Positions 15,113 to 30,325 of a stretch of 31,872 nt of DNA are shown piece after piece (position 1 is the stretch's first letter; each line of letters opens with the position of its first letter). The notes beneath the pieces were generated by a model that saw only the letters and a program-made list of their open reading frames with translations, made no database searches and was not told the DNA's origin. Source of the DNA: a virus. Its lineage: Duplodnaviria > Heunggongvirae > Uroviricota > Caudoviricetes. The stretch lies in the IMG/VR virus record IMGVR_UViG_3300045988_180666; one strand, given 5' to 3'. The translations under genes and the position numbers were made by a program.

Positions 15113-15140
15113 AATTCACATCCTGTTTATATTAACACGG

Positions 15141-15320: not shown

Positions 15321-15323
15321 CTT

Positions 15324-15338
15324 ACCTTATTATATATA
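15324..15338 (-). repeat. Copy c (15 nt, inverted) of the AT-rich repeat
   Basis: Plus strand ACCTTATTATATATA = reverse complement of TATATATAATAAGGT; between radC stop and its terminator. Confidence 0.65.
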
Positions 15339-15340
15339 TA

Positions 15341-16024
15341 TTATAGCTTTCCTTTGTCGTGGTAGCTGTAGAAGCCATCCTCAGCCAAGATGATATGGTC
15401 CATCAAGAAAAGTCTCATCACCTCGCACGCCTTGGCTATCTTCTGCGTGAGCATATCGTCCGCCTTGCTCGGCTGCGTGCTGTTCGATGGGTGGTTGTGT
15501 GCCACGGCGATGATGGTTGCATTGTTGAGCACGGCTTCTTTCATTATCAGTCGAACGTCCACCGCTGTCTCGGTGATGCCTCCCTCGCTGAGCTTGGTGC
15601 ACTTTATCAGCCTAAAGTTTTGGTTCATCAGCACTACCCAAAAGCCCTCTGTCTCATTGCAGCCTATCATTGGGCGAAGATAGTTGTAGAGTGCCAGGCT
15701 GCTGCCTAGGTCGGTGTTTCTCGCTACCTTTTCCATTTGGTAGCGTCTGCCTAGCTCGATGGCTGCCTGTAGGGCTATCGCCTTGCAGTCTCCAATTCCT
15801 GGTACCACTTCCAGGTCTTCTATTCTCGCCTTGCCGATGTTGCGAAGCGAGTTGCCCATGATGTTATAAATCTGTCGTGCCTGCTCTTGGCTGTCCTTGG
15901 TACCTGCCCCTCTGTTGATTACCAAAGAAATCAAGTCAACGTTGGTAAGGGTGTCGAAACCTTGGTTATAGGCTCTGTACTGCGGTCTCTCCTCCATACA
16001 AAGATTGTTATAATTTTGTCTCAT
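15341..16024 (-). CDS. radC: RadC-like JAB/MPN-domain protein (UPF0758 family)
   Basis: 227 aa. N-terminal helix-hairpin-helix-like VVPGIGDCKAIALQAAIELG. C-terminal AVAHNHPSNSTQPSKADD matches the JAMM motif HxHx7Sx2D typical of RadC family. Confidence 0.8.
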   Translation of the reverse strand: MRQNYNNLCMEERPQYRAYNQGFDTLTNVDLISLVINRGAGTKDSQEQARQIYNIMGNSLRNIGKARIEDLEVVPGIGDCKAIALQAAIELGRRYQMEKVARNTDLGSSLALYNYLRPMIGCNETEGFWVVLMNQNFRLIKCTKLSEGGITETAVDVRLIMKEAVLNNATIIAVAHNHPSNSTQPSKADDMLTQKIAKACEVMRLFLMDHIILAEDGFYSYHDKGKL

Positions 16025-16039
16025 ATCTTTTGTTATTTG

Positions 16040-16564
16040 TTAGTTATACATTCTCTTTGTTCTCGCTAGGAACATCGCTCCCATCACTTGTGCGCCACAT
16101 TCGGCTAGCTCGTTGGCGAACTCTCGGGCGGTCGCTCCGCTCGTCACCACGTCGTCGAAGATGATGACTTTCTTTCCGCTGAAGTACTCTCTATCGAGTG
16201 CCACTCTGTAGTCGAAGCTCTCACACACTCTGTCTGTGCTGAAGTGCTTGGCTGTGCGCTCTCCATAGATGGAAATGTGCTCGTTTCCGTTCTGTACCTT
16301 TGCGCCTTGGCTCACCTTTTGGGCGAAGCGAGAAAAGCGCTTGGTGTACTTCTTTGAGTTGGCTGCTGGAGCGCAAACCATCACGAAGTCGCTGGCTTTG
16401 TCGCCATAGGTGTTGACGAAAGAGCTGACCACCATATCGGCAGCTGCGTCTGTCGCCCACTGCTTTCCATCCTTGAAGGCAAAGATGAAGTTTCTCACTT
16501 GCTCTGCTTGTGCTGAGCGGTCGAAACGCTTGGAGCTGTACTCGTAATAATTGAAAGTTTTCAT
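16040..16564 (-). CDS. Phosphoribosyltransferase (PRTase) domain protein, ComF-like
   Basis: 174 aa. KKVIIFDDVVTSGATAREFANELAECGA matches the PRPP-binding loop of type I PRTases. No N-terminal zinc-ribbon. 15 nt upstream of radC. Confidence 0.7.
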   Translation of the reverse strand: MKTFNYYEYSSKRFDRSAQAEQVRNFIFAFKDGKQWATDAAADMVVSSFVNTYGDKASDFVMVCAPAANSKKYTKRFSRFAQKVSQGAKVQNGNEHISIYGERTAKHFSTDRVCESFDYRVALDREYFSGKKVIIFDDVVTSGATAREFANELAECGAQVMGAMFLARTKRMYN

Positions 16565-17360
16565 ACGCTTAAAATTTTTATTCTAGCCAGAGGGAGGAAG
16601 GAGCTTTTTTATTTGAACTCGTCTTTGCCTGCCCGTCTGAGAGTTTTTTTTATTCTGTCCGTCGGTCGTTTTTGTCGCTTTTTACGGTGCGATGCAGACG
16701 AGCGGAGAAGAGGTATGAAAGCCAAGGAATTTTGCAAAAAGTTTATGGAAAACCGTCATCTCTGATTGCGGAAGGCTGCCGAAAAGTTTTTGGAAAATAG
16801 ATTTATCGGTACTTGGTGCATGCCGTCCGCCGTACCTTTGCACCCGAAAAAGAGATAATGACCGATGGATAACCGATAAAGGGAAAAGCTCTCGGACAGG
16901 AAAAGCGGGCAAAGAAAAGGCTCTGCCTTACCTTGGTGGTTAAGCCTTAGCGACGTTTGAGCGCCATCACGGTCACCACCGCTTGAAAATTCGCAAATTT
17001 TAACCCTAGCGTATGAAATGAAAGATGGAAAATTTGCGTCATCAAAAACACCATGTTTTTCAGACTTCAGGAGGAAAAACATACCTTGGAGCGATGAAAT
17101 CGCAGCATTTGGCATGCTTCGACCCCGAGGTTGAAGATGCCGAATGTGTCGTTTTGCGACAGGTTTTCCACACCCACGGATTGGAAAACCCCGATTTTAT
17201 CGTGGTTTTAGGGATTCAAAGGGAAAATAATTCCCCTTTGTCGGCGATAGCACCCCCCACCGCCCTACGCCCGAGCGCGCCTTCCGCCCCCTTGGAAAAG
17301 ACGGAATATGTAAAAGACCGTTAACGTTTTTGTAGGAATGTAAAAAGCCAAAAGGCACGA

Positions 17361-17394
17361 AAAAAGGGAACACGCTTCGCAGCGCACTCCCCTT
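17361..17394 (-). terminator. Putative terminator after terL
   Basis: Minus strand GGGAGTGCGC-TGCGAA-GCGTGTTCCC (10 bp stem incl. 3 G-U pairs) followed by TTTTTTCG. Confidence 0.45.
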
Positions 17395-17462
17395 ATCGGC
17401 GGTCAAGCAAGAATGCCAGCCACCTAACTTATATAAGAATCGTACTATCTAAAGAAATCAAA

Positions 17463-19064
17463 CTATAGCATGGAACCCGTGGCGATGTAGCCATCAGCCT
17501 GAGGGTATTTCTCCATGCCAATCATGAGCGTGTCGTAGGCATCGGAGCCATCGGTGCGAGCCTCCAACTTATCCTCCTCGGTCTCAGCCAGCTTCTCGCC
17601 TCGCTTATCCTTCTTGCCGTTGTAGACCCCGGCCAGGCGGATGGAGATGAGCAGGTCTTCGTTGTTCTCGCTGTTGATCATCGAGCGATGCTCAGCCTTG
17701 CCGAGGAACATGCGGTTGAGCAGAAGCATCTTTTCGAGATGTCCCATCGGGTTGCCCAGATAGACCTCGTTGACATACCAGCCATGGTCGGTGAGGTAGT
17801 CGGTGATGAAGGTATGGAAGTCATCGTTCATCAGGGCGTAGTTGTTGCCCACGAAGGTGGAGTCGTAGTAGAAGTTGACCTCTTTGCACCGATGGTACTC
17901 ATAGTACTGCATGAACTTGTCGAGCAGGGCTGGCAGCTTCTCCTCATACTTCACGAAGATGCTCTTGAGGCAGCGTGCCTCGCCCCGCAGGTTGTCTTGT
18001 CCGACGGCTATCCAGTTGATGAGGGCGTTGGCATCGAAGGCGATGCAGAGCGGACGGTCGGGGTCAACGTCGGCATCCATTCTGGAATCTACATGCTTGA
18101 GCTTGTCGATGTCGTAGCCCAAGCCATCGAGGTAGGCGAGGTTGGGCGCCGTGTATAGGTTGGCATCCCTGAGGTTGGAGTAGAAGCCATCGAGCGAGAT
18201 GGAAGGTCGCTTGCACATGATGGAGGTCTGGAAGGTGAGGGCAGGGAGGTCTCGCTTCATCTGCTTGATGAACTCCATGCCGAGCACCTCGATGTTATAG
18301 ACCGATGAGTACTCTTTATAGAAGAGTGCCTTGGAGCGCAGTTGCGCCAGGAGCTGACCAATCTCTCGGAGTCGGCGCTGGGCATAGCCTGAGACATGGC
18401 CCGAGGTCTTGATGCGGTTGCGTATGTCATACTCCTCTACCACGAGCGAGGCGATGGCGTCGATGAGCAGCTGGTCGCAGTCTTTCTTGTAGTTGAGGAA
18501 CCAGGAGCCCTTCTTGGTCACGGGCATATCAGAGGTGATGAGCATGCCATGGTGGTAGTAGTGCTGGCCGAAGAGGTTGACGTTGCCTCGATTGGCAGGG
18601 AAGGTCTCGTCTTTGAGCTGTTCGAAGTTGATGAACTTCGCCTCGTCGATGTCGAGGTAGTCGAGCGAGAGGGAGTTGGAGGTACCCTTGCGGTCTTGCG
18701 AGATGATGGTACCGATGGAGCCGTTATAGAAAGAGATGGTGTTCTCCCAGTTGCTGGGCGGTATGACCGGGTCGGGCCATCCCAGTTTTTTGGGAGGCTT
18801 GACCCCGATGAGATAATGCTTGCCCCGGTGGAAGCCCCATCGCTCCCAGTGCTGAAGCATCGACGGTATGGTGTTGGTGAGGCATCGCTTGGTGTTGGCG
18901 GATACGAAGCCGCCGTTGCTGCCAGGCATGCGCTGCATGTTGCGCAGGTTGAAGGTGGCGTGGAGAATGCTCTTGCCGATGCCTCGACCGCCCACGACCA
19001 CGTTGTCGCGGGCGGAGATGAGGTTGACCTCCATCTGGGCTGGGTTGAGATATTGATCTATCAT
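17463..19064 (-). CDS. terL: Terminase large subunit
   Basis: 533 aa. Walker A-like VVVGGRGIGKS near N-terminus, Walker B-like LDYLDIDEA. Size and position beside a small upstream gene with ATGA overlap fit a phage TerL. Confidence 0.75.
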   Translation of the reverse strand: MIDQYLNPAQMEVNLISARDNVVVGGRGIGKSILHATFNLRNMQRMPGSNGGFVSANTKRCLTNTIPSMLQHWERWGFHRGKHYLIGVKPPKKLGWPDPVIPPSNWENTISFYNGSIGTIISQDRKGTSNSLSLDYLDIDEAKFINFEQLKDETFPANRGNVNLFGQHYYHHGMLITSDMPVTKKGSWFLNYKKDCDQLLIDAIASLVVEEYDIRNRIKTSGHVSGYAQRRLREIGQLLAQLRSKALFYKEYSSVYNIEVLGMEFIKQMKRDLPALTFQTSIMCKRPSISLDGFYSNLRDANLYTAPNLAYLDGLGYDIDKLKHVDSRMDADVDPDRPLCIAFDANALINWIAVGQDNLRGEARCLKSIFVKYEEKLPALLDKFMQYYEYHRCKEVNFYYDSTFVGNNYALMNDDFHTFITDYLTDHGWYVNEVYLGNPMGHLEKMLLLNRMFLGKAEHRSMINSENNEDLLISIRLAGVYNGKKDKRGEKLAETEEDKLEARTDGSDAYDTLMIGMEKYPQADGYIATGSML

Positions 19065-19690
19065 AGTGCTTTGTCCTCCTTGACTTCTTCTGTAGGTGTA
19101 TATTCCAAGAGCTGTTCGTCGTAGTCCTCGGCCTCGATCTTGACGAGATCCATGGAGTTGTCGGTGTATTTCTTGACGAGCTTCTTGATGGTCTGCATCA
19201 CGTTAGGGATGCGCTTGAGACCCAAGTGTCGTGGGTCGGTGGTAGGGATGAAGACCTGAGGCTGAATCTGGTCGTAGCCGTTGTCGGTAGGATCCTCTTT
19301 GTCGAGCAGGTGATATTTGCCGTATGCAGCTGCGGCGGCAGCCATGGCTCGGGCATCGCCCATGGAGTCGGCCTTGTCGTAGGTGCGCTGTATCATCTGG
19401 TCGAAGCGATAGCGGGCGAAGTCTTTTGACACTTTTTGCAGGTTGCCCAATATGAGCTTGATGAGGTGCAGGTCGTTGTAAGCCATCATGCGCTGCACCT
19501 TGTAGTCGTGCATATCTTTATAGACCAGCTCTTGGTCGCTCTTGCGAGGGTTGATGAGCCACCAGGCATAGAGGGCACGGATGCGCAAAATGCGGTCGCG
19601 CACTGGGGCGGGCACATTTTGCGCATCCATCTCTTCGGGTGTGCGGTCCATCAGTTCGATGATGGCATCGATGTTGGCGGGTTCTCTCAT
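19061..19690 (-). CDS. Putative terminase small subunit
   Basis: ORF track, 209 aa. Directly upstream of terL with 4 nt overlap. Call is positional only. Confidence 0.45.
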   Translation of the reverse strand: MREPANIDAIIELMDRTPEEMDAQNVPAPVRDRILRIRALYAWWLINPRKSDQELVYKDMHDYKVQRMMAYNDLHLIKLILGNLQKVSKDFARYRFDQMIQRTYDKADSMGDARAMAAAAAAYGKYHLLDKEDPTDNGYDQIQPQVFIPTTDPRHLGLKRIPNVMQTIKKLVKKYTDNSMDLVKIEAEDYDEQLLEYTPTEEVKEDKAL

Positions 19691-19968
19691 ATTCTAATCT
19701 CCTCTAACATTTGGTTCAGATATTCGTGTGTGCGCTGCACCGCCTGTGGCGAGCCAGCCGCAGCCAGGTCTAGCTTGTTTTTGCGTATCTGCTGGCGCAC
19801 CGTCGCCATGCCCAAGTAATAGACACGGTGAAGCTCGGAGTCGGGCTTCAGTATCTCGTCACGCAGATCGTCCTCGCTAATATCCAAAAGGACGGACATC
19901 TCGGATATCGGAGTCAACGTCTCCGCGAAGTCTTGCACTTTTTTGAGTAATTCCTGAGAAATTTCCAT
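19687..19968 (-). CDS. Hypothetical small helical protein (start uncertain; possible DNA-binding)
   Basis: ORF track, 93 aa. Charged helical composition. Overlaps the upstream 191-aa ORF by about 92 nt unless translation starts at internal Met (about 19899). Confidence 0.45.
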   Translation of the reverse strand: MEISQELLKKVQDFAETLTPISEMSVLLDISEDDLRDEILKPDSELHRVYYLGMATVRQQIRKNKLDLAAAGSPQAVQRTHEYLNQMLEEIRI

Positions 19969-20452
19969 TGATTCTTAAGCTTTGAGTGTCACAATGAAGG
20001 GTATATCCGCCGAAGAGGTCGGCGAAGACCTGCGGGTCGGTGGTGATGATGGTTGACTCGTCACGGCTGCCGTAGGTCTGGTTTTGCGAGGTGACGACCG
20101 ACACGACGTGCTGGTCGTTGCGGAAGAGTGTCACCTTGGAGTGGTTTTGCCCCAGGAACACATCGTTGAAGCAGGTCTGCATCATGCGCCACAGCTGCAC
20201 GGTCTTTTTGCTCGCCTTGACATCGAGCAGCATCGTTGCCGACAGGATGCTGCCCGACTGGCGCATCAGGCGGAAGCCTCGCAGGAACTCCTCGGAGGTG
20301 GAGTAGGAAGACACCCACACATCTGCAGGGCCTATCTGGGAGAGAATCCACTTGATGAGACCGAGGGTGTGGAGGTGCCGCCCGAAGTAGGCTTGCGTCT
20401 GGGCATCGGCGATAGGACGGAGCAGGTCACTGACCTTGACCTTGGTCGGCAT
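19877..20452 (-). CDS. Hypothetical phage protein
   Basis: ORF track, 191 aa. No recognisable motif. Confidence 0.5.
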   Translation of the reverse strand: MPTKVKVSDLLRPIADAQTQAYFGRHLHTLGLIKWILSQIGPADVWVSSYSTSEEFLRGFRLMRQSGSILSATMLLDVKASKKTVQLWRMMQTCFNDVFLGQNHSKVTLFRNDQHVVSVVTSQNQTYGSRDESTIITTDPQVFADLFGGYTLHCDTQSLRINGNFSGITQKSARLRGDVDSDIRDVRPFGY

Positions 20453-21170
20453 TGGCGGCTAGCTTAGCCTTGGCTACACGGTCACGGTCGGCATTGGTAA
20501 CCTGGTATGAGTCGTAGGTGAGCATGTCGGCACGATAGCGCTTGTCGAGGTCGGAGAGTATCTTGAGAAGCTCGTATCGGTCGCATGGCTCAAGGCGCTC
20601 CATCGTCTTGAGCGTCTCGAAGGTCGATTTAATCTGCTTGTATCGCTTGGCGTTGGCATCCCAGAGAGCGGCAACCTCGGCAGGAAGGAACTCATGGTCG
20701 CTGCGCTTGCCCTTGCGGATGACCGCCACGCCATCGCTCTCGGAGGAAGGCAGCTCGGCATCATCGGTCGAGCCATCATCGTCGATGGAATCGGCATTTT
20801 TTGCGATTTCATTGCCATTTTCGTCGGTTTCATCGGTCTTTTTGGTCGTTTTCTCGGTCGTATCGGTCGTTTCTTCGGTCGTTGCCACAGGTACGCCCTC
20901 ACTGATGATGGCTTGCGCCTCTGGTATGACGATGGCATCCATCTGCTTGACCTCTTCGATGGTCATGCCATCGAGACGAATCTTCAGGAACTTATTCAGC
21001 TCATACTCGATGTTGGTGCGATAAACCTGTGGCTGTCGGGTGGCACGGAAATGGTAGAAGCGATTGCGGTTGAGACGGAAGAGCATGTCTGCGCCCTTGA
21101 TGATGTCAGCGTCGCTCTCGTGCTTGGCATTGAGCCACGCCTGTATCTGTTTGGTGAATTGATGATCCAT
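20427..21170 (-). CDS. Hypothetical phage protein with acidic Thr/Glu/Asp-rich low-complexity segment
   Basis: Track ORF 20427..21302. Start moved to ATG at 21170 (MDHQFTKQ...) because the track's upstream extension spans a terminator hairpin (21201-21229). Confidence 0.5.
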   Translation of the reverse strand: MDHQFTKQIQAWLNAKHESDADIIKGADMLFRLNRNRFYHFRATRQPQVYRTNIEYELNKFLKIRLDGMTIEEVKQMDAIVIPEAQAIISEGVPVATTEETTDTTEKTTKKTDETDENGNEIAKNADSIDDDGSTDDAELPSSESDGVAVIRKGKRSDHEFLPAEVAALWDANAKRYKQIKSTFETLKTMERLEPCDRYELLKILSDLDKRYRADMLTYDSYQVTNADRDRVAKAKLAANADQGQGQ

Positions 21171-21187
21171 ATATAAGAATGTTTTTG

Positions 21188-21229
21188 ATGAAAAGAACAA
21201 AGGTGGCTCAGGCACGAAGCGAGAGCCAC
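21188..21229 (-). terminator. Rho-independent terminator after capsid-region operon
   Basis: 8 bp stem GGTGGCTC (21201-21208) / GAGCCACC (21222-21229); plus-strand A-rich tract gives TTTGTTCTTTTCA on minus strand. Confidence 0.6.
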
Positions 21230-21286
21230 CTAAGCTTTGAAGTTTAAACCGTATGTAGTTATGCAAAAATTTGGGCAAATGAACGT

Positions 21287-21883
21287 TTATGCCGCCTCCC
21301 ATACAGAGCCATCGGAACCCTTGATGTCTCCGGACTCAGTCTCGATCTTGCCAGGATAGAACGGTGTAGGGCAGAAGTCTGTCGCCTCGGTGTTGACGGT
21401 CGTGGTGCAAGCATCGGTCACGCCGCTGCCTGATGCCTGGCTGACGGTAATCTTAGGTGCGAATGCCTCGCAGCCGATGAGACGGGCACGACCCTTGCGG
21501 TCTTGCACCATCATGATGAGCTCGTCGTTGATAGCCATGGTAGCGAAGCCACTGATGTCCTCGTCGGTACCACCCACCACGAACTCGCCTTTGTTGAGGA
21601 ACGTAGCGGAAGGTGCCTCGCCCTGAGTCTCTGCAGTAAAATTGCTCTTGGCATCTACGAGGTCGAGACTGTGCCACTTGGCATCGCTCGCCAAGGTGAA
21701 GTCGCCTGTATATTGAGCCAGCTTAGCTGGGTCTGTGGTCTCGTCAGTTGCCGCTGGCAATGTTGGCCAAGTCAGAATCTGACTCTTCAAGATGAAGAAA
21801 ACACGAGGGCGAACGCCTGGGGCTATGCGAGCCCCAGGACATTTCTTAACTGATTTATATAAATCTTTTGTATTACAAGCCAT
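21287..21883 (-). CDS. Hypothetical phage protein (possible head-associated protein)
   Basis: ORF track, 198 aa. Immediately downstream of putative major capsid gene. Followed by strong terminator. Confidence 0.55.
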   Translation of the reverse strand: MACNTKDLYKSVKKCPGARIAPGVRPRVFFILKSQILTWPTLPAATDETTDPAKLAQYTGDFTLASDAKWHSLDLVDAKSNFTAETQGEAPSATFLNKGEFVVGGTDEDISGFATMAINDELIMMVQDRKGRARLIGCEAFAPKITVSQASGSGVTDACTTTVNTEATDFCPTPFYPGKIETESGDIKGSDGSVWEAA

Positions 21884-21895
21884 AATTTTATCTCC

Positions 21896-21911
21896 TATAT
21901 ATAATAAGGTG
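21896..21911 (+). repeat. Copy a of 16 nt AT-rich repeat TATATATAATAAGGTG
   Basis: Exact 16-mer shared with 30310-30325; lies between capsid candidate stop and next gene start. Confidence 0.7.
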
Positions 21912-21916
21912 AAACT

Positions 21917-23035
21917 TTACTCCTTGCCCTCAGCTCCGGTATCGTCTGCAGAAGAATTCTTCTGCTCTGCATCGCTAGCTGTGTTGCTGCTTGCAGGATC
22001 AGCACCTGAACCCTTTGTGATGAGCGATGTGGTACCATCGTTTGTGATGAACAGGGCTCGTTCTTTATTGATGCTCTCGTACTGGCAACCTAAGAACTTG
22101 GTGGCGATGAAGTCGAGCTTCCAAGGGTGGTACTTTTCTACGCTGATCTTCTCCTCGTCGCTGTTGTTTGCCTCGTTGACACCCACGAGCATATTGTTGC
22201 GAGTGGTGAGCTGGAAGAACGGAGCGTTCTTCTTGTTGATGAGTGGTACCATCTCAACGTTGTCGAAACCCTCGACGGTGTTGTGGTTGTAACCGGTATT
22301 GTATGGCACATTGCCAAACTTATTGAGGTAGTTGCGGTTGTAGAGATTGATGAACGCCTGTGGAACGTAGAGATAAAGCTTCTCTTCGCCAATCAGTTCT
22401 TCGTCAGCCTCCTCGCAAATGGCCTGTGCGAAGTCAACGGCGTTATCGCTGCTGATATTCTTACCACTGCCCAAAATATCTGAAACTTTGATGAGGTTGC
22501 CGAGGTCTCGAGACAGCTTGCCATTAGTCAACTCAGTCTTGGCGATGGTATCGAAACCATTGAAGAGGTCTTTTGAGCCTTTGCCCTCGTCGTTGCGCAC
22601 GGCATCGAAGAGGTGGAGGTTGAGGTTCTTGCCCAGCTTGAGCGCCAAGAGCTGCAGCACCTGAAGGGTGATTGGCACGTTCTTAAGCGCTTCGCCATTC
22701 ATGGCGTTGGCCCCCCAAATGGTGGAATAAACTGAGTTCGGGGAGAACTTGATGTCAACGTTGCCGAGGAACACCTGCAAAGTGCGAGGTGTAATCTTTA
22801 CGCCACCATCGCCCACGCGGTTCTCGTCGTATGGACCAAACTCTGCGTTGCCGAGCAACTCGCCCACGGTCTCTGAAACTCTGATGCCCGGGCGCAGGGT
22901 CATGTACTTGAGTGACTGAGCCAAGCCTTTGGTAGGCATCGTAATCAACTTCGAACGGTAAGTTTTCGCAGTGTTCTGCAGCTGTACATCGACATCTACA
23001 GGCACAATGAATTTATTATCTGCCATATTATGCAA
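21917..23035 (-). CDS. Putative major capsid protein
   Basis: ORF track, 372 aa. Immediately downstream of the ClpP-like protease gene, which is the usual capsid position. Size fits HK97-fold capsids. No motif confirmation. Confidence 0.45.
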   Translation of the reverse strand: MHNMADNKFIVPVDVDVQLQNTAKTYRSKLITMPTKGLAQSLKYMTLRPGIRVSETVGELLGNAEFGPYDENRVGDGGVKITPRTLQVFLGNVDIKFSPNSVYSTIWGANAMNGEALKNVPITLQVLQLLALKLGKNLNLHLFDAVRNDEGKGSKDLFNGFDTIAKTELTNGKLSRDLGNLIKVSDILGSGKNISSDNAVDFAQAICEEADEELIGEEKLYLYVPQAFINLYNRNYLNKFGNVPYNTGYNHNTVEGFDNVEMVPLINKKNAPFFQLTTRNNMLVGVNEANNSDEEKISVEKYHPWKLDFIATKFLGCQYESINKERALFITNDGTTSLITKGSGADPASSNTASDAEQKNSSADDTGAEGKE

Positions 23036-24053
23036 ACTGATTTAAAACATCCAACACTTGATCTGAGCAGAAATCCTCGACCTTGGTGTCATCGACAGCA
23101 GTGTGCGTGTCGCCACCAGGCTCTCCCTCCAGATCCTTCACTTTATCCTTCAGGTCATCTCTCTCCTTTTCGAGATTCTTGACCTTAGTCTCTAACTCCT
23201 TCTTCTCGTCCTTGACCTTCTGAAGCTCTGTGTCTTTGTCGGTCACGGCCTTGGAGTCGGCAGCGATCTTATCCTCCAGTTTCTGCATCTGCTCCTGTGA
23301 GATTGTGCAGTTCTTTGCGGAATCTTCTGCCTCAATGCCCTCGATATTGAGGACATTGTTGATGTGAGTCCATTTTTTGATCATATTAATAATTTTATTT
23401 TGTGATTTATCTTTGCCGAATAATCGGTCGATGATGCTTGGCTTTTTATCATACCAGGAGTTAACAACCTCTGGGAGAACAGGAAGGTTGTTGTACTTGA
23501 TGAAGTCTTGCGTCTGCTCGGTGATGTCGGCAGGCTTGCCATCCATGGCTTCATCGACGAGACCCAGTTCGATGCACTCATCGACGGTGTGCCACATCGC
23601 TTCGGACATCACCTTGACGATGTCCTCGTGCTTCTTGCCCGAGCGATCGCAGTAAACGTTGGCGATGATGTTGTCGATTTTCTGCTGGTTCTCTTGCTGT
23701 TTTTGAAGTTGCTCGATGAGCGAGCCTATCTGCTCCTCGTTGAGCGCAGACCACACAAACTGCTCGGTAGAGCACTTGTGTACCAGGAGCAAGCTATATT
23801 TGCTCATGCGAATCTTGCTGGCACCCATCGCACAGATGGTGGCAGCAGAGGCAGAGAAGCCCGCCTGGAAGTCAACGGTCACGTCGCCATGGGACTTGAA
23901 CATCTGACAGATGGCGAGACCTGCGGAGACCTCGCCACCCAAGGAGTCGATGGCAACATCGACGTGCTTATCTTTGTTGGCCTTAAGAACATCGCGAACC
24001 ATGAGCTTGGTCCACGAGCCAATATATCCTGTGATAGAAATTTGGTACTTCAT
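23028..24053 (-). CDS. ClpP-like prohead serine protease with C-terminal coiled-coil (scaffold-like) extension
   Basis: 341 aa. DSLGGEVSAGLAI, GFSASAATICAMGA and LLLVHK resemble ClpP/S14 catalytic regions. C-terminal 100 aa is Lys/Glu/Asp-rich heptad-like (KVKDEKKELETKVKNLEKERDDLKDKVKDLE). Confidence 0.75.
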   Translation of the reverse strand: MKYQISITGYIGSWTKLMVRDVLKANKDKHVDVAIDSLGGEVSAGLAICQMFKSHGDVTVDFQAGFSASAATICAMGASKIRMSKYSLLLVHKCSTEQFVWSALNEEQIGSLIEQLQKQQENQQKIDNIIANVYCDRSGKKHEDIVKVMSEAMWHTVDECIELGLVDEAMDGKPADITEQTQDFIKYNNLPVLPEVVNSWYDKKPSIIDRLFGKDKSQNKIINMIKKWTHINNVLNIEGIEAEDSAKNCTISQEQMQKLEDKIAADSKAVTDKDTELQKVKDEKKELETKVKNLEKERDDLKDKVKDLEGEPGGDTHTAVDDTKVEDFCSDQVLDVLNQFA

Positions 24054-24074
24054 ATATCTTTGCGATTTTTACGG

Positions 24075-24084
24075 CGCAAAGATA
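24075..24084 (-). promoter_or_regulatory. Promoter -7 element for protease-capsid operon, embedded in a 12 bp-arm inverted repeat
   Basis: CGCAAAGATA about 22 nt from ATG at 24053; forms right arm of palindrome TATATCTTTGCG (24053-24064) / CGCAAAGATATA (24075-24086). Confidence 0.5.
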
Positions 24085-24113
24085 TATAATAATGTATAAG
24101 GATAAAAAAACTT

Positions 24114-24533
24114 TTATTGGATGATTTGGAGCGGTTTTATCACGTCAGACCATGTCACGGTATAAGTGATGAGCGATGAGTCTGTGTGTGAGCTTGGCAT
24201 ATTTTCGGTGCGAGTGAGCACCGGGAAGGGACGCTGGTCTCTGCCCAGAAGATAGGCGCACCCATCGGCGGTAGTCACCTTGTAGGCGAGCGGGTGAACC
24301 TCTGAGTCTATCTGCTCGCTCGACTTGAAGGTGAGCTTTGAAGTGAAAATGCGAACCTTGGACTCAATTTTGTCGGTGATTTCACAACTCGACGGCATTT
24401 TGCACTTTATCTGCTGGAAGACTGCACTTGCAGGAATGATGCAAAGATTTTTGGCTGGGAAGATGACAGCCTTGAGGTCATCGGCTCTCACGACCTCAAT
24501 CTTGATGATGTTTTTGATGTATGACATAAGCAT
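24114..24533 (-). CDS. Hypothetical phage protein
   Basis: ORF track, 139 aa. No recognisable motif. Confidence 0.5.
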   Translation of the reverse strand: MLMSYIKNIIKIEVVRADDLKAVIFPAKNLCIIPASAVFQQIKCKMPSSCEITDKIESKVRIFTSKLTFKSSEQIDSEVHPLAYKVTTADGCAYLLGRDQRPFPVLTRTENMPSSHTDSSLITYTVTWSDVIKPLQIIQ

Positions 24534-24612
24534 GAAAATTTATCTTTTTGTTTGGAATCGACGGATATTTCGGTTTTGTTCGGAGTTGTTTGCAGAGACG
24601 GAAAAATTTGTA

Positions 24613-25197
24613 TTAATCTTTGCTAAATCTTGTTGTAGATGTTAAATTTACGCCTCTTTTTGCGTGTTGATCACGCATTCTGTAGAAACATTGGCGTACG
24701 GTATCCTCGTAATCGATGCCAATGCCATGCTGTTCGCACCATGCCGAAATGAGCGATGAAAGCTTGCATGAGCGGTCGGCGATGTCTTTGAGCGAAGCCC
24801 AGAGATCCATCTTGAAGAGGTCGGAAATCATCTCTTTGACGGCACGTCTGGCACGTGGCCCGAGGTAGTTGTACTCTCGCACAGGCTTAGCCTTGGAGTC
24901 AGGCAGCTCGATGGCAAGATACTCTTCGGGATGGGTGAGCCATCGGCTCTGCTCGAACTCCTCGTCGTGGAAGGTATGCTTGACACTTTGGTGCAGTTGG
25001 CTGGCATCAGCCTGCTGCATCTCTTGGATGTTCTCTTGGTCGATAGGCGATAGGTTGACAACGGGAGGTCTGCTGGTGAACTTGCGGAGCACAGCCACCT
25101 CGTTGCCGATGGCAGGGAAGACCACTGGGTTGCCATAAGCTCGGTAAGCCCATTGTCTGATGTGGGTAGGAACTTTGATGTAAACAATTGGATTCAT
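24613..25197 (-). CDS. Hypothetical phage protein (about 194 aa)
   Basis: Track ORF 24613..25209 begins with a non-ATG start; first ATG at about 25197 (MNPIVYIKV...) lies about 20 nt downstream of TGCAAAGATA motif (25216-25225). Confidence 0.55.
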   Translation of the reverse strand: MNPIVYIKVPTHIRQWAYRAYGNPVVFPAIGNEVAVLRKFTSRPPVVNLSPIDQENIQEMQQADASQLHQSVKHTFHDEEFEQSRWLTHPEEYLAIELPDSKAKPVREYNYLGPRARRAVKEMISDLFKMDLWASLKDIADRSCKLSSLISAWCEQHGIGIDYEDTVRQCFYRMRDQHAKRGVNLTSTTRFSKD

Positions 25198-25215
25198 ATA
25201 GCTATGCAATTTTCG

Positions 25216-25225
25216 TGCAAAGATA
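25216..25225 (-). promoter_or_regulatory. Promoter -7 element for the 194-aa gene
   Basis: TGCAAAGATA about 20 nt from ATG at about 25197. Confidence 0.55.
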
Positions 25226-25339
25226 CAAAGAAAATTTGAAATAACTAACGATAATCGGTAAAAACTAACTTTTATCAGTAAATTTGGTGTGATATAATTT
25301 CGTCCGAAAAGTTTGTATTTTTGTATCGTACAAACAAGG

Positions 25340-25593
25340 CTCTGTAACTAGCTGATAATCAATACTATTTTTGTGATACAATTTTCTGATACAGAAATTG
25401 TAACTCTTTAGCTTTTGTAACTTGGGGTTTTGTCGAGGTCGAAGACCTGTAGGAGAAGGGGCTTGTTACAAACTTGAAAAACTTTGTAACAGAGTTGTAA
25501 CGCAACTTTGTAAACATCGGCAAGGCGGCTTAACTCCATCTTTTATAATTATTTACCTCTTTTGCCAACATTATGTTACAGAGTTACAAAGGA
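25340..25593. repeat. Iteron-like array of at least 9 TTGTAAC / GTTACAA elements in both orientations
   Basis: Copies at about 25343, 25399, 25416, 25464 (rev), 25485, 25496, 25507 (variant), 25576 (rev), 25584 (rev). Includes near-repeats TGTAACAGAGTTGTAAC and TGTTACAGAGTTACAAAG. Downstream of primase gene. Confidence 0.6.
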
Positions 25594-25733
25594 TTTGTAT
25601 AAAATAAAAGAAAGGGGTGTGGGGAAAACGATGGCACGGGGCGTGAAGGAGGATAGGGAAGGCCCATCGAGACACCCAGGACACCCCCATTGGCCAATGG
25701 AGGGGTAGCGAGACGAAACATCGCCCATGGCAA

Positions 25734-25770
25734 CGAAAAAAGGGAGCGACGGCCAATGCGCATCGCTCCC
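25734..25770 (-). terminator. Rho-independent terminator after primase-helicase gene
   Basis: 8 bp GC stem GGGAGCGA (25742-25749) / TCGCTCCC (25763-25770); plus-strand A-run 25736-25741 gives TTTTTT on minus strand. Confidence 0.65.
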
Positions 25771-25951
25771 TCGTAACATGGGAAAAGAATTATAAATCAG
25801 CAAAAATCTGCCTATGAAATCAGCCCTCGTCTGCTTGCAAAAATAGTGAAAAATTGCTTGAAAATTTAGCCGAAAATATTTGCATAATTCAGATATTTTT
25901 TGTACCTTTGCACTATAACTTGGGGCTATCTATTCTATTATATATGGATGG

Positions 25952-28906: not shown

Positions 28907-28932
28907 AATTCTTTTCCATTGTAAATTTGCTT

Positions 28933-28940
28933 GCAAAATT
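28933..28940 (-). promoter_or_regulatory. Promoter -7 element for primase-helicase gene
   Basis: Plus-strand CAAAATTA = reverse complement TAATTTTG, about 28 nt upstream of ATG at about 28906. Confidence 0.45.
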
Positions 28941-29074
28941 ATTGCAAAGCGAGTTCAAAACAAAATACTTATTTTTTGTCGCATAGAGCCTTTGGCTCAT
29001 ACTCGACGTATCTGTGGAGAGGGTGGCAGTATCTGCCATTGATGCAGTTGCTGCCATCCTCGCACTTTTGGCAT

Positions 29075-29386
29075 TTAATCGGTGGCATCGACTTTTATAT
29101 CAAAAGTGTCGTTGTGTAGCAACATCTTGGTATGAACATAAATTGGCTTTTGCTCATCCTCATCCCATCCAACCTCTCGGAAGTCTCTGCCATCGATATA
29201 GCATTCGGTGGCGTATCCTTTGTCGGTCCACTCTACGATATGGTCTTTGTCGAACTCGTCTCTTGCTGGCACTGTAGCCAGAACACGAGTGCCAAACTTG
29301 CTGTAGCTAATCTCGTGTATGGTTACGTTAGGATATTTCTCGATGATTGCCTCCTCGATAGATTTTGTCTTAGTCTTCTTTTTCAT
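29075..29386 (-). CDS. Hypothetical early-region protein
   Basis: ORF track, 103 aa. Third gene of minus-strand early operon. Confidence 0.5.
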   Translation of the reverse strand: MKKKTKTKSIEEAIIEKYPNVTIHEISYSKFGTRVLATVPARDEFDKDHIVEWTDKGYATECYIDGRDFREVGWDEDEQKPIYVHTKMLLHNDTFDIKVDATD

Positions 29387-29576
29387 TGTTCTTCATTCTG
29401 AATTTAACAATACCTGCCACGATGCCGTCTTCTTGGTCATCGTAGAACATATTTAAATCTGTTGTGCCCTTATGGAGTGTACCATAGGACACGTCAACGG
29501 CAACGCTGGCATCCTCGAAATCTTTGAGGATGGCTTGAAGCTGTTTGCTGTTGCATCTGACTGTCATTTTTCCCAT
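29370..29576 (-). CDS. Hypothetical small early-region protein
   Basis: ORF track, 68 aa. Confidence 0.45.
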   Translation of the reverse strand: MGKMTVRCNSKQLQAILKDFEDASVAVDVSYGTLHKGTTDLNMFYDDQEDGIVAGIVKFRMKNNEKED

Positions 29577-29788
29577 GATCCATCATTGATAATTTGCTCG
29601 ATGACCTCTCTGTCGATGGCACGCCAAGTATTGGTGCGCATCTTATTGTAGATGGTGTTCTGGCTCATCTCTAGCTTTAGCTGCAGTGTGGCCATGAACT
29701 TGCTTCTCTTTTTGCGTGGTATCTCATTATACCATGCGAGGATGATATTTTCATCATCATTTTTTTGTTTTTTTCTTGCATATTCCAA
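29564..29788 (-). CDS. Small basic protein, first gene of early lytic operon (Cro-like role possible); start uncertain
   Basis: ORF track, 74 aa with apparent non-ATG start at 29788; first in-frame ATG at about 29695. Divergent from repressor gene. -7 element about 22 nt upstream. Confidence 0.45.
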   Translation of the reverse strand: MEYARKKQKNDDENIILAWYNEIPRKKRSKFMATLQLKLEMSQNTIYNKMRTNTWRAIDREVIEQIINDGSWEK

Positions 29789-29798
29789 TATTTATTAT

Positions 29799-29806
29799 TA
29801 ATTTTG
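29799..29806 (+). promoter_or_regulatory. Repressor promoter -7 element (plus strand), back-to-back with early lytic promoter
   Basis: TAATTTTG on plus strand about 97 nt upstream of repressor ATG (29903); adjacent to the minus-strand element. Confidence 0.4.
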
Positions 29807-29809
29807 TTG

Positions 29810-29817
29810 CAAAGTTA
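29810..29817 (-). promoter_or_regulatory. Early lytic promoter -7 element (minus strand) in divergent switch region
   Basis: Plus CAAAGTTA = reverse complement TAACTTTG, 22 nt upstream of the 74-aa gene start at 29788. Confidence 0.5.
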
Positions 29818-29902
29818 GTAATAAAAATCGGAAAATACTAACGAAAGTAAGTAAAAACACCTACGATAATAGGTTAAATATTATTAATTAAATTAGGTAA
29901 TT

Positions 29903-30280
29903 ATGTTTAATGGTCAGATAATCAGAAAGTTAATGTCGGATGCTGGCTTAACTAAAAAAGAGTTTGAAAGACGTATGTTCGGTAGTAAATCGACCGACCT
30001 CAACCATTTGGAAAAAGCGAAGAATCTTCGCAGTGACACTCTCGAACGTCTGCGTGATGTGTTGAAGTGCTCTATGGATGACTTCTTTACAGCACCCTCA
30101 TGGGCTGAGAACGGAAAGGGGACAGTCGTAGGCTCTAACAATGTGCTGTCAACAGTAGCCATCGGCAACGAAGTGATGGAAGCCCAATATCTCAAGGAGT
30201 TGCTCTTGGAGAAGGACAAACGCATCAGCACTTTGGAAAATTATATCAAGCTTCTGGAGACTAACTTAAATAAGGACTAA
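29903..30280 (+). CDS. XRE-family helix-turn-helix transcriptional repressor (phage CI-like), with C-terminal coiled-coil
   Basis: 125 aa. N-terminal IRKLMSDAGLTKKEFERRMFGSKSTDLNHLEKAKNLRSDTLERLRDVLKCSMDDFF is a typical HTH_XRE. No S24 peptidase domain. Only phage gene on plus strand. Confidence 0.65.
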   Translation: MFNGQIIRKLMSDAGLTKKEFERRMFGSKSTDLNHLEKAKNLRSDTLERLRDVLKCSMDDFFTAPSWAENGKGTVVGSNNVLSTVAIGNEVMEAQYLKELLLEKDKRISTLENYIKLLETNLNKD

Positions 30281-30309
30281 TACGAAACATAATTCGTAAG
30301 ATGAATCCT

Positions 30310-30325
30310 TATATATAATAAGGTG
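30310..30325 (+). repeat. Copy b of 16 nt AT-rich repeat TATATATAATAAGGTG
   Basis: Exact 16-mer, 30 nt downstream of repressor stop, near presumed prophage right boundary. Confidence 0.7.

What the first reader, a model, noticed from the sequence alone, without database searches (positions are those of the whole stretch)
15324..30325. Exact 15-16 nt AT-rich sequence TATATATAATAAGGT(G) present three times, each at a module junction
Copies at 21896-21911 (between capsid candidate and next gene), 30310-30325 (30 nt after the repressor stop, at the presumed prophage/host boundary) and 15324-15338 (inverted, between radC stop and its terminator). A 15-16 nt exact match three times in 32 kb is far beyond chance even for AT-rich DNA. 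A degenerate fourth copy, ATATATAATAA...AAGG, lies at about 24082-24100 in the protease promoter region. The sites coincide with boundaries between functional modules and with the likely attachment region, so they could be a recombination target, a conserved late-regulatory or boundary element, or a protein-binding site.
Basis: seen in the sequence. Interest (0 to 1): 0.55.

Follow-up and report, generated by a model that had tools for sequence, protein, structure and literature searches.

The report
Conserved AT-rich intergenic motif in prophage
A 13-15 base AT-rich sequence really is repeated and evolutionarily conserved between genes of this gut Bacteroidales prophage, and it looks like a gene-expression signal placed at the ends of transcription units, not a recombination or attachment site; what reads it is still unknown.

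Summary
TATATATAATAAGGT occurs exactly three times (15324-, 21896+, 30310+), with none expected by chance. The conserved core is the 13-mer TATATAATAAGGT. Weaker copies lie at 24081 (head-operon promoter), 21168 and 25932.

The window is a tRNA-Met-integrated temperate phage of Bacteroidales with no cultured relative. In about 100 related contigs:
- The capsid-junction copy is always present, in two alleles that keep ACCTTAT.
- The radC copy is kept while its terminator stem changes.
- The repressor-side copy is exact in two sublineages and decayed in others.

Similarity breakpoints do not fall on the motif. The true att core is AGTCCTGCCGCCGCAAC at 30370-30386, 45 nt away. The HTH repressor appears to have a different, co-varying operator.

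My best guess (0.35) is a recognition site for a sequence-specific DNA-binding or DNA-bending factor, from phage or host, acting at promoter and terminator boundaries much like mycobacteriophage stoperators or IHF sites. The main rival (0.25) is purely local RNA-level roles: terminator shoulder, ribosome-site hairpin, AU-rich leader. This is a moderately interesting new member of a known kind.

The parts
15324..15338 (-). Site A: exact 15-mer, sense on the radC mRNA. It lies 2 nt after the radC stop and directly abuts the radC terminator hairpin.
   Evidence: In 34 radC-bearing relatives TATAATAAGGT is unchanged in 32, while the hairpin has 5 different stem versions and the (TA)n tract varies.
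15300..15321 (-). radC intrinsic terminator hairpin (GGGGAAGG-CTAAAA-CCTTCCCC). The consensus scan scores it as a terminator on both strands, with the motif acting as the tail on the + strand.
21896..21911 (+). Site B: exact 16-mer in the 33-nt capsid / next-gene junction. The late (minus-strand) mRNA reads CACCTTATTATATATA, followed by GGAGAT and, 12 nt after the motif, the ATG at 21883.
   Evidence: It is present in 64 of 64 related junctions as two alleles, ACCTTATTATATATA (22) and ACCTTATATAATATA (40); ACCTTAT and GGAGAT do not vary. The minimum-energy fold pairs UCACC with GGAGA, but the region folds no better than shuffles, z = 0.1.
30310..30325 (+). Site C: exact 16-mer, sense in the 3' UTR of the HTH (CI-like) gene. 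It lies 29 nt after the stop and 45 nt before the att core, inside the phage arm.
   Evidence: It is exact in the window type (4 loci, 45 nt from the core) and the L320 type (14 loci, 74 nt). It has 2-4 mismatches at 72-74 nt in the L045 and L049 types.
24081..24095 (+). Site D: 2-mismatch copy. It forms the spacer of the head-operon promoter and runs into its -7 box.
   Evidence: Variants in relatives are TATATAATAAGGA, TATATCATAAGGT and TATATAATAATGT. The homologous promoters of distant relatives carry TATATA(A)TAAGGTAT in the spacer, at variable register and in the opposite orientation.
24077..24111 (-). Head-operon (protease-capsid) promoter: GTTTTTTTAT (24111-24102), a 17-nt spacer, then the -7 box TATCTTTG (24084-24077).
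   Evidence: The 27-nt G-to-TA register is conserved in about 60 relatives.
21168..21182 (+). Site E: 3-mismatch copy overlapping the true ATG (21170) of the 247-aa MDHQF gene, downstream of a terminator hairpin.
   Evidence: It is an exact 15-mer in the L049/L051/L053/L318/L319/L323 type, 4 nt before the ATG, and is deleted in the L045 type.
21202..21230 (-). Terminator hairpin GGTGGCTCTCGCTTCGTGCCTGAGCCACC after the 198-aa gene, upstream of site E.
25932..25946 (-). Site F: degenerate sense copy (CATATATAATAGAAT), 5 nt after the stop of the 994-aa early gene.
   Evidence: It reads TATATAATAGGGT in L320, L321 and L052. It lies in a 131-nt stretch that is missing in L043.
5504..5516 (+). TATATATAAGGTG: the motif lacking 3 nt, inside the 1159-aa tail gene and antisense to it. 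Its status is unclear.
30370..30386 (+). attR core, the 3' end of tRNA-Met. It is not part of the motif and is listed to place site C.

Best explanation
The 13-nt element TATATAATAAGGT (reading ACCTTATTATATA on the late-gene strand) is a conserved cis-acting signal placed at the boundaries of transcription units in one lineage of tRNA-Met-integrating Bacteroidales prophages.

Most likely it is the recognition site of one sequence-specific DNA-binding or DNA-bending factor. That factor could be phage-encoded and still unidentified, or a conserved host IHF/HU-like protein.

At site D the bound factor would sit on the spacer and -7 box of the head-operon promoter and so control late transcription. 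At the other sites it would act as a roadblock, insulator or architectural element:
- between capsid and the next gene;
- after a terminator and before the packaging genes;
- next to the radC terminator;
- after the early operon;
- in the attP arm behind the repressor gene.

Shown: the copies exist, are non-random, are confined to intergenic DNA, are asymmetric and occur in both orientations. They persist at the same positions through about 20-25% nucleotide divergence while adjacent sequence changes. One copy overlaps a conserved promoter. The motif does not co-vary with the HTH repressor.

Inferred: that a protein binds the sites, which protein it is, and the direction of the effect.
For: 1. 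Non-random: three exact copies against 0 in shuffles; 6 against 0.23 with up to 3 mismatches.
2. Same sequence kept at unrelated positions. At site A the motif is invariant in 32 of 34 loci while the abutting hairpin has five stem versions. Site C is an exact 15-mer in the window and L320 lineages, although both flanks differ. Site E is exact in one lineage, in a context unlike site B.
3. The sites evolve independently. B allele 2 coexists with a canonical A in many contigs. Gene conversion is therefore not what keeps the sites alike; selection towards one consensus is the simpler reading.
4. Site D overlaps the spacer and -7 box of the head-operon promoter in every lineage member. Distant relatives (capsid 30-50% identical) carry TATATA(A)TAAGGTAT in the same spacer, including an exact 15-mer in L141. 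Two other promoters of the same class in the window lack it, so it is an add-on and not generic promoter sequence; it is also not the general spacer consensus.
5. A radC homologue only 45% identical, in another phage (L170), has the exact 15-mer 8 nt after its stop, followed by a probable stem that I paired by eye and did not fold.
6. The 13-mer is enriched outside the lineage but rare: 5 contexts in 3.9 Mb against 0.16 for composition-matched permutations.
7. The motif is constant across lineages whose HTH repressor and upstream dyad differ. This fits a conserved factor other than that repressor.
Against: - No binding protein is identified. Pfam and PHROG searches of 30 window proteins gave no candidate beyond the HTH.
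- The register of the AAGG block within the homologous promoter spacers varies from position 16 to 27. That suits occlusion by a repressor but not a precisely positioned activator.
- Several copies decay or are lost in some lineages: E in the window and L045 types, C in the L045 and L049 types, F in the window. Each site is therefore individually dispensable.
- At site B the AT-rich part varies freely between alleles, and the motif is no better conserved than the rest of the 33-nt spacer.
- Copies at transcript 3' ends are always in the sense orientation and abut hairpins (A; L170, stem paired by eye; and the palindromic terminators of L128/L134/L177/L200). That regularity points to an RNA- or termination-level role.
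- If a host factor read this exact sequence, it should be commoner in other Bacteroidales phages than about 1 per Mb.
Confidence: 0.35

Rival explanations
1. There is no common trans-acting factor. The copies are pieces of local RNA-level signals that share ancestry and composition:
- the A/U-rich 5' shoulder of intrinsic, partly bidirectional terminators (A, F, C);
- a small hairpin that pairs an anti-SD-like CACC with the GGAG ribosome site (B);
- G-free, unstructured AU-rich leaders that help ribosome loading in Bacteroidetes (B, E, D).

Their similarity would come from duplicated terminator or leader cassettes plus local constraint.
For: - Sense copies always sit between a stop codon and a hairpin: A in all five hairpin versions; L170 (stem paired by eye); and tail-gene relatives in which TATATAATAAGGTG - stem-loop - CACCTTATTATATA forms a palindromic terminator between convergent genes.
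- The terminator scan calls site A a terminator on both strands.
- At B the invariant parts are the possible stem (CACC / GGAG) and the variable part is the loop.
- The late-strand version ACCUUAUUAUAUA has no G. Related phages carry their own repeated G-poor leaders at many late-gene junctions (L034, L378/L379).
- Elsewhere the motif sits 0-8 nt before ATGs.
Against: - Such roles need composition, not an exact 13-mer. They do not explain invariance at A while the stem changes, or the exact 15-mer at C in lineages with unrelated flanks.
- The B hairpin is marginal, and the region folds no better than shuffles, z = 0.1.
- ACCUUAUUAUAUA is a poor U-tract.
- C and F have no convincing terminator.
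- The motif occurs in both orientations in leaders (sites B and E against the L049 17511-type copy and the L152 family), which a single RNA function does not predict.
Confidence: 0.25
2. The motif is a phage-specific (late or middle) promoter element read in the direction ACCTTATTATATA by host RNA polymerase, with a phage activator or sigma-like factor.
For: - Four of six copies (C, D, B, E) point in the main transcription direction.
- D is fused to a genuine -7 box.
- In unrelated phages CACCTTATTATATA is fused in the same way to TCTTTG (L168, L154 twice, L211).
- E follows a terminator and precedes the packaging genes, where a restart would make sense.
Against: - B, C, E and A lack the TTTG of the Bacteroidetes -7 box and lack a correctly spaced -33 element.
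- At B a start site downstream of the motif would leave out the GGAG ribosome site.
- A and C would drive antisense RNA into radC and the repressor gene.
- No sigma-like protein was found.
- The other two late-class promoters in the window lack the motif.
Confidence: 0.1
3. The motif is a recombination linker or mosaic boundary. Short conserved sequences at module ends would promote exchange of modules, or serve as targets of a site-specific recombinase or endonuclease.
For: - The copies are intergenic.
- Site A lies in the radC-PRTase cargo, which is present or absent among relatives.
- Site F lies in a 131-nt indel.
- Site E is a roughly 15-nt indel relative to the L045 type.
- The L045/L046 alignments end at 30323, the last base of site C.
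Against: - Cargo boundaries (15116/15215/15246 and 16877/16984/17150) differ between relatives and lie 78-200 nt from site A. The other cargo end has no copy.
- No breakpoint falls at B, D or E in any of 14 relatives.
- The loss of similarity at C is the diverging attP arm, and other relatives align through it.
- All copies sit at the same positions across the lineage, which indicates vertical inheritance.
Confidence: 0.05
4. The copies are functionless relics: ancient duplicated AT-rich sequence or (TA)n microsatellite products that happen to persist.
For: - The (TA)n tract is length-polymorphic.
- Several copies decay or are lost.
- At B the motif is no better conserved than its flanks.
Against: - The TATAATAAGGT part is retained at A, B, C, D and E across lineages with about 20-25% nucleotide divergence.
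- It is retained next to rapidly changing sequence.
- It recurs at homologous junctions in relatives with 44-45% protein identity.
Confidence: 0.1

Closest known systems
Stoperators of Cluster A mycobacteriophages (phage L5, repressor gp71; recalled from memory: Brown et al. 1997 EMBO J)
   Same: Both are asymmetric 13-bp sites dispersed through the phage genome in short intergenic gaps next to stop and start codons. One site overlaps a promoter. Most copies (4 of 6) lie in one orientation relative to lytic transcription.
   Different: - There are only about 6 copies here, against 20-30 in L5.
- Two copies lie in the opposite orientation.
- No copy lies at the early promoter switch.
- The motif does not co-vary with the HTH repressor, which has its own co-varying dyad.
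- No binding has been shown.
IHF sites of phage lambda attP/cos and the IHF-binding RIP/BIME elements of E. coli; Bacteroides host factor BHFa of CTnDOT (recalled from memory)
   Same: Both are asymmetric sites of about 13 bp with an A/T tract beside a specific block. They occur in either orientation: in an attP arm tens of bp from the core, at promoters, and beside extragenic palindromes or terminators. The site is conserved across phages of different hosts, as expected for a host factor.
   Different: - The sequence is unrelated to WATCAANNNNTTR.
- The other attP arm has no copy.
- Some copies lie inside the RNA polymerase footprint instead of upstream of it.
- The exact motif is rare in other Bacteroidales phages.
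Start-associated sequences (SAS) of Cluster K mycobacteriophages (recalled from memory: Pope et al. 2011 PLoS One)
   Same: Both are conserved 13-bp asymmetric motifs repeated immediately upstream of start codons of a subset of genes (here sites B, E and D, 0-28 nt before the ATG).
   Different: Half of the copies here (A, C, F) follow stop codons with no gene downstream. Both orientations occur before start codons. The motif on the mRNA strand at B and E does not contain the ribosome-binding site.
PeSL (promoter-early stem-loop) mobile regulatory cassettes of T4-type phages (recalled from memory: Arbiol et al. 2010 Genome Biol Evol)
   Same: Both are repeated terminator-hairpin-plus-signal cassettes between genes. 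Site E and the + strand of site A have hairpin-then-motif order, and some copies lie near variable cargo.
   Different: Breakpoints do not coincide with the motif. The motif is not a recognisable promoter. B, C and D have no adjacent terminator.

Membership tests
Stoperator-like repressor sites | Many copies of one asymmetric site of about 13 bp in short intergenic regions across the genome | tested here: inconclusive
   The asymmetric 13-mer is confined to intergenic DNA. There are only 3 exact and 3 degenerate copies, all in the right-hand 16 kb. None occurs in the tail region or in the 8.6 kb to the left of the window.
Stoperator-like repressor sites | One orientation relative to the direction of transcription | tested here: not met
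   C, D, B and E read ACCTTATTATATA on the late strand. A and F read the reverse.
Stoperator-like repressor sites | Same sequence as the operator at the early promoter, and co-variation with the immunity repressor | tested here: not met
   The switch region 29387-29902 has no copy within 3 mismatches. It carries a dyad ACCTA-N6-TAGGT (29859-29874) that changes to ACTAA/TTAGT in the L045 and L320 types, while the motif stays the same.
Stoperator-like repressor sites | Bound by the phage repressor | not testable with these tools
   This needs gel-shift (EMSA), footprinting or ChIP experiments.
Phage attachment site / integrase arm-type site | Identical core at both prophage ends, matching the bacterial target | tested here: not met
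   The repeated core is AGTCCTGCCGCCGCAAC, the 3' end of tRNA-Met: 30370-30386 in the window, and in the intact tRNA at L496 5437-5512. The motif is not part of it.
Phage attachment site / integrase arm-type site | Arm-type sites repeated on both attP arms close to the core | tested here: not met
   Site C lies 45 nt (window) or 72-74 nt (other lineages) from the core. The integrase-side arm has no match better than 3-5 mismatches within 200 nt.
Mosaic-boundary / recombination linker sequences | Similarity breakpoints between related genomes coincide with the sequence | tested here: not met
   BLAST block ends against 14 relatives do not fall within 20 nt of A, B, D or E. Only C coincides, at the diverging attP arm.
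Bacteroidetes sigma-A promoter (-33 TTTG / -7 TAnnTTTG) | TAnnTTTG with a TTTG-like -33 element about 19-21 nt upstream | tested here: not met
   Only D is fused to TATCTTTG with a conserved GTTTTTTTAT 27 nt upstream. B, C, E and A have TATAGGAG, TATAAGGA, TATAATAT and TATATATT in its place. The motif is not the general spacer consensus of 113 family promoters.
Start-associated sequence (translation-start motif) | Sense-strand position a few bases upstream of start codons | tested here: not met
   This is true for B (12 nt), E (0-9 nt) and D (28 nt). A, C and F follow stop codons, with no start codon within about 15 nt downstream of the motif.
Intrinsic (bidirectional) terminator component | Directly flanks a G+C-rich hairpin with a U-rich tail | tested here: inconclusive
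   This is met at A, at the palindromic terminators of L128/L134/L177/L200, and probably at L170 (stem paired by eye and not folded). E lies 14 nt after a terminator. B, C, D and F have no significant hairpin of this kind.
Known RNA families (Rfam) | Match to a curated covariance model | tested here: not met
   There were no hits at gathering thresholds anywhere in the window.

The most novel reading that the evidence does not exclude
The copies might form a trans-acting RNA-RNA regulatory pair. Transcripts that are separate from the late operon (the HTH repressor mRNA, the radC cargo mRNA and the early-operon mRNA) carry UAUAUAUAAUAAGGU(G) in their 3' UTRs. At radC it sits just 5' of the terminator hairpin, the layout of a 3'-UTR-derived small RNA seed. 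The late mRNA carries the perfect complement (C)ACCUUAUUAUAUAUA 0-12 nt upstream of the start codons of the genes after capsid. Prophage-state transcripts could then mask late-gene ribosome loading by a 15-16 bp duplex. The orientation of all six copies in the window fits this. The seed at A and the target at B are unpaired in the minimum-energy folds. Against it: the commonest B allele (40 of 64 loci) breaks the duplex while the A copy in the same contigs stays canonical, so there is no co-variation. In addition, the L049 type has no good sense copy in a 3' UTR.
Probability: 0.07. Interest if true: 0.7.

Novelty: new member of a known kind. Interest (0 to 1): 0.35.

Why it matters
Almost nothing is known about how temperate phages of gut Bacteroidales, especially Prevotella-type hosts, control late genes. 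This family has no cultured or GenBank relative, and nearly all its proteins lack annotation.

A short conserved element that marks the head-operon promoter, the capsid / next-gene junction, the packaging-gene leader, a cargo terminator and the attP arm gives a concrete handle on that control. A 30-bp probe could fish out the factor, and the element could help annotate transcription units in related prophages.

If the factor is a host IHF/HU-like protein, the site would be one of the first consensus sequences for such a protein in this phylum. If instead the element is only local RNA punctuation, the finding is ordinary.

Tried and rejected
- **Chance or low complexity.** Rejected by shuffles and composition-matched permutations.
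- **Attachment site.** Rejected. The tRNA-Met core lies 45 nt away, and the other arm has no copy.
- **Mosaic breakpoints.** Rejected.
- **Operator of the HTH repressor.** Disfavoured. There is no copy in the switch region, and a separate dyad co-varies with the repressor lineage.
- **Palindromic dimer site.** CCTTAT-N-ATAAGG is seen at C only, and the spacing between half-sites is 2, 4 or 5 nt in different copies, so this was rejected.
- **Canonical promoter.** Only D qualifies, and the spacer consensus of 113 family promoters does not resemble the motif.
- **Shine-Dalgarno site for hidden ORFs.** No start codon lies at a usable distance (within about 10 nt) downstream at A, B or C.
- **Stable RNA structure.** None at B, and weak at C (z = -1.9). 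Only the D-region inverted repeat is significant, and it is a different feature.
- **Known RNA families and tRNAs in the window.** None found.
- **Gene conversion keeping copies identical.** Not supported, because sites carry different variants within one genome.
- **Motif travelling with radC cassettes into other backbones.** All close radC homologues in IMG/VR lie in this same lineage. One distant case (L170) does show radC stop, then motif, then a probable stem paired by eye.
- **Literature search for the sequence.** It returned only unrelated primers. Papers on Bacteroides promoters gave no matching element.
- **Pfam and PHROG searches of 30 window proteins for a candidate binder.** Nothing beyond the HTH.

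Full report
**1.

TATATATAATAAGGT occurs exactly at 15324-15338 (-), 21896-21910 (+) and 30310-30324 (+). None of 100 dinucleotide-preserving shuffles contained it. With up to three mismatches there are six hits against 0.23 expected. These include 24081-24095 (2 mismatches) and 21168-21182 (3 mismatches).

The window is about 50% GC overall, so the repeat is not a by-product of AT-rich DNA. The copies at 21896 and 30310 share a 16th base.

The left end of the 15-mer is a (TA)n tract. At the radC copy its length differs among phages whose RadC proteins are 100% identical. The informative unit is therefore the 13-mer TATATAATAAGGT. Two more relatives of the motif exist:
- CATATATAATAGAAT at 25932-25946 on the minus strand, 5 nt after the stop of the 994-aa gene. 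It reads TATATAATAGGGT in L320, L321 and L052.
- TATATATAAGGTG at 5504-5516, inside a tail gene.

**2. What the window is**

Genes run almost entirely on the minus strand. Recognisable products are:
- a ClpP-type head protease (23028-24053);
- a weak TerL match (17463-19064);
- RadC (15341-16024) and a phosphoribosyltransferase (16040-16564);
- a Cro/CI-type HTH gene on the plus strand (29903-30280);
- a TetR gene (30547-31188).

Canonical Bacteroidetes promoters (TAnnTTTG) precede several operons. Capsid relatives come only from Bacteroidales genomes, metagenomes and IMG/VR proviruses. GenBank phages give no hit.

The invariant 17-mer AGTCCTGCCGCCGCAAC at 30370-30386 is the 3' end of a tRNA-Met gene. 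The intact tRNA lies at the other end of the source contig and of several relatives. The prophage therefore ends at about 30386, and TetR and the genes beyond it belong to the host.

**3. The sites and their surroundings**

I name the sites A to F. "Late strand" means the minus strand.
- **A** (15324) is sense on the radC mRNA, 2 nt after the stop, and abuts the radC terminator hairpin.
- **B** (21896) lies in the 33-nt capsid / next-gene gap. The late strand reads TAA-AGTTTC-ACCTTATTATATATA-GGAGATAAAATT-ATG.
- **C** (30310) is sense behind the HTH gene, 45 nt before the att core.
- **D** (24081) forms the spacer of the head-operon promoter and runs into its -7 box: GTTTTTTTAT-CCTTATACATTATTATA-TATCTTTGCG.
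- **E** (21168) overlaps the real start codon (21170) of a 247-aa gene, downstream of a strong terminator at 21202-21230. The longer ORF listed mechanically is over-extended.
- **F** follows the stop of the 994-aa early gene.

C, D, B and E read ACCTTATTATATA on the late strand. A and F read the reverse.

**4. Conservation**

- **Site B.** It is present in 64 of 64 related junctions, as two alleles that differ by a 3-nt micro-inversion in the AT part: ACCTTATTATATATA (22 loci) and ACCTTATATAATATA (40 loci). ACCTTAT and the following GGAGAT are constant.
- **Site A.** In 34 radC-bearing relatives TATAATAAGGT is unchanged in 32. The abutting hairpin exists in five stem versions with compensatory changes.
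- **Site C.** It is exact in the window type (4 loci) and the L320 type (14 loci), although both flanks differ. It has 2-4 mismatches in the L045 and L049 types.
- **Site E.** It is an exact 15-mer 4 nt before the ATG in the L049 type, decayed in the window, and deleted in the L045 type.
- **Site D.** It varies by one or two bases (TATATAATAAGGA, TATATCATAAGGT, TATATAATAATGT).

Different sites carry different variants within one genome. For example, B allele 2 occurs with a canonical A in many contigs. Gene conversion therefore does not keep the copies alike. The copies are old, sit at fixed positions, are individually dispensable, and drift around one consensus.

**5. What it is not**

- **Not the attachment site** (section 2). 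The integrase-side arm has no copy.
- **Not a mosaic breakpoint.** Block ends in BLAST comparisons with 14 relatives do not fall within 20 nt of A, B, D or E. The radC-PRTase cargo (about 15247-16876) has different boundaries in different relatives, all 78-200 nt from A.
- **Probably not the operator of the HTH repressor.** The switch region has no copy. It carries a dyad ACCTA-N6-TAGGT at 29859-29874 that becomes ACTAA-N6-TTAGT or ACTAAT-N4-ATTAGT in lineages whose HTH differs by about a third of its residues (my by-eye estimate). The motif stays the same.
- **Not a symmetric dimer site.** The spacing of the half-sites differs between copies.
- **Not a known RNA family or tRNA**.
- **Not a stable RNA structure**.

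**6. Wider context**

Upstream of the protease gene, about 60 distant relatives (protease 27-40% identical) share a promoter with a fixed geometry. GT[C/A/T]TTTT lies 27 nt before the TA of the -7 box. In most of these relatives the spacer contains TATATA(A)TAAGGTAT, at a variable register and in the opposite orientation to the window. L141, whose capsid is 44% identical, has the exact 15-mer there.

Two other promoters of this class in the window (-7 boxes at 7126-7119 and 12489-12482) have unrelated spacers. The element is therefore specific to the head promoter, not generic. A position matrix from 113 family promoters shows no such consensus.

The motif turns up in other settings too:
- In another phage (L170), a RadC homologue only 45% identical is followed 8 nt after its stop by the exact 15-mer and then a probable stem, which I paired by eye and did not fold.
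- In tail-gene relatives the two halves TATATAATAAGGTG and CACCTTATTATATA flank a hairpin between convergent genes.
- In other Bacteroidales phages the 15-mer sits fused to a -7 box (L168, L154, L211) or 0-8 nt before ATGs. That scan selected for exact matches and is biased.

In 3.9 Mb of unselected family DNA the 13-mer has 5 contexts, against 0.16 for permutations. TATA[AT]0-4TAAGGT ranks second of 90 permuted words, largely because of the head promoter. The sequence therefore recurs in this phage group, but the multi-copy state is peculiar to this lineage.

**7. Mechanism**

The features to be explained together are:
- an exact asymmetric 13-mer kept at unrelated intergenic positions;
- both orientations;
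- overlap with one promoter;
- adjacency to stops, starts and hairpins;
- no co-variation with the repressor;
- turnover of single copies.

A shared trans-acting reader explains the sequence identity most simply. I commit, at 0.35, to a sequence-specific DNA-binding or DNA-bending factor, either an unidentified phage protein or a host IHF/HU-like protein. It would occlude or shape the head promoter at D and act as a roadblock, insulator or architectural site at the other boundaries. This resembles stoperators or IHF sites in how it would work, but it fails membership tests for both.

The main rival (0.25) is that each copy serves a local RNA-level role and no common reader exists. Its best support comes from three observations. 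The copies at transcript 3' ends keep a strictly sense, hairpin-abutting position. At B the allele differences fall in the AT-rich segment between CACC and GGAG. Related phages carry their own repeated G-poor leaders at many late-gene junctions. Its weakness is that composition-level roles do not require an exact 13-mer.

Lower-ranked readings are a phage-specific promoter (0.10), a neutral relic (0.10) and a recombination linker (0.05).

The most novel reading not excluded is RNA-RNA pairing between 3'-UTR sense copies and late-leader complements. The orientation of all six copies fits it, but the lack of co-variation between A and B argues against it. I put it at 0.07.

**8. Verdict**

The element is genuine and conserved, with an unresolved reader, in a poorly known phage family. 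It belongs to the known kind "dispersed short regulatory repeats in phage genomes" and is a new member of that kind. Interest is moderate (0.35). The decisive work is transcript-end mapping and a DNA pull-down.

Noticed in passing
window 30370-30386; L496 5437-5512: The prophage is integrated in a tRNA-Met (CAT) gene. The 17-mer AGTCCTGCCGCCGCAAC is the attR core, and the intact tRNA lies next to a 387-aa ORF that I take to be the integrase, by position only, at the other end of the source contig. Both ends also carry a similar terminator-like hairpin after the core.
   Followed up: yes
window 24111-24077, 7153-7119, 12516-12482 (all minus strand): A distinct promoter class: GT[A/C/T]TTTTTAT, a 17-nt spacer, then TATCTTTGC, with exactly 27 nt from the G to the TA of the -7 box. 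It precedes the head operon and two tail-region operons. The same register is conserved upstream of the protease gene in about 60 distant relatives. It is a likely late-promoter signature of this phage family.
   Followed up: partly
window 24052-24064 and 24075-24087: A 13-bp inverted repeat pairs the -7 box region of the head promoter with the protease start codon. The RNA fold is -16.2 kcal/mol, z = -4.8. Relatives show a compensatory change (ATATATCTTTGCG/CGCAAAGATATAT becomes ATATAACTTTGCG/CGCAAAGTTATAT). Read-through transcripts would have the AUG sequestered, whereas transcripts started at this promoter would not.
   Followed up: partly
window about 15247-16876: The RadC-like JAB protein and the phosphoribosyltransferase form a cargo module with its own terminator. 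The module is absent from the L043, L052 and L049-type relatives, and its boundaries differ between them.
   Followed up: partly
window 15329-15340 and homologous positions in L389-L420: The (TA)n tract between the radC stop and the motif has at least four length alleles among phages with 100% identical RadC. It behaves as a hypermutable microsatellite.
   Followed up: partly
window 29859-29874: The dyad ACCTA-N6-TAGGT about 30 nt upstream of the HTH gene changes on both arms in other lineages (ACTAA-N6-TTAGT in L045, ACTAAT-N4-ATTAGT in L320). It is the likely true operator of the CI-like repressor.
   Followed up: partly
L034 (whole locus, e.g. 2868, 5457, 7183, 8646, 11034 to 19570); L378/L379 9489-15086: Distant relatives carry their own, far more numerous junction repeats. 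L034 has GTAATACTTAATACTTTATACTTAATACTT-type arrays, often flanking small GC hairpins, at 14 or more gene junctions. L378 and L379 have G-poor CTCTCCACACTC-type repeats before late genes. Phage-specific repeated intergenic elements seem to be a family trait.
   Followed up: no
capsid / next-gene junction of L007, L012-L016, L055-L093 and others: Bacteroides/Phocaeicola-type relatives have near-perfect Shine-Dalgarno sequences (AATAAGGAGGTGAT-ATG, GAAAGGAGGTAAAT-ATG) at this junction. That is unusual for a phylum that generally does not use them.
   Followed up: no
window 21896-21910 and 64 homologous junctions: Site B exists as two population alleles that differ by inversion of three central bases (TAT/ATA). 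The allele in the window is the minority one (22 against 40 loci).
   Followed up: yes
window 5504-5516: TATATATAAGGTG, the motif minus 3 nt, lies inside the 1159-aa tail gene on the antisense strand (coding TLYIS). It may be chance or a real extra copy.
   Followed up: no
window 5, 18686, 21493, 28393: The 12-mer AAGACCGCAAGG (or its reverse complement) occurs four times in the window and three times in several relatives.
   Followed up: no
window 20427-21302: The mechanically listed 291-aa ORF is over-extended across a terminator. Alignment with relatives puts the real start at 21170 (MDHQF..., 247 aa).
   Followed up: yes
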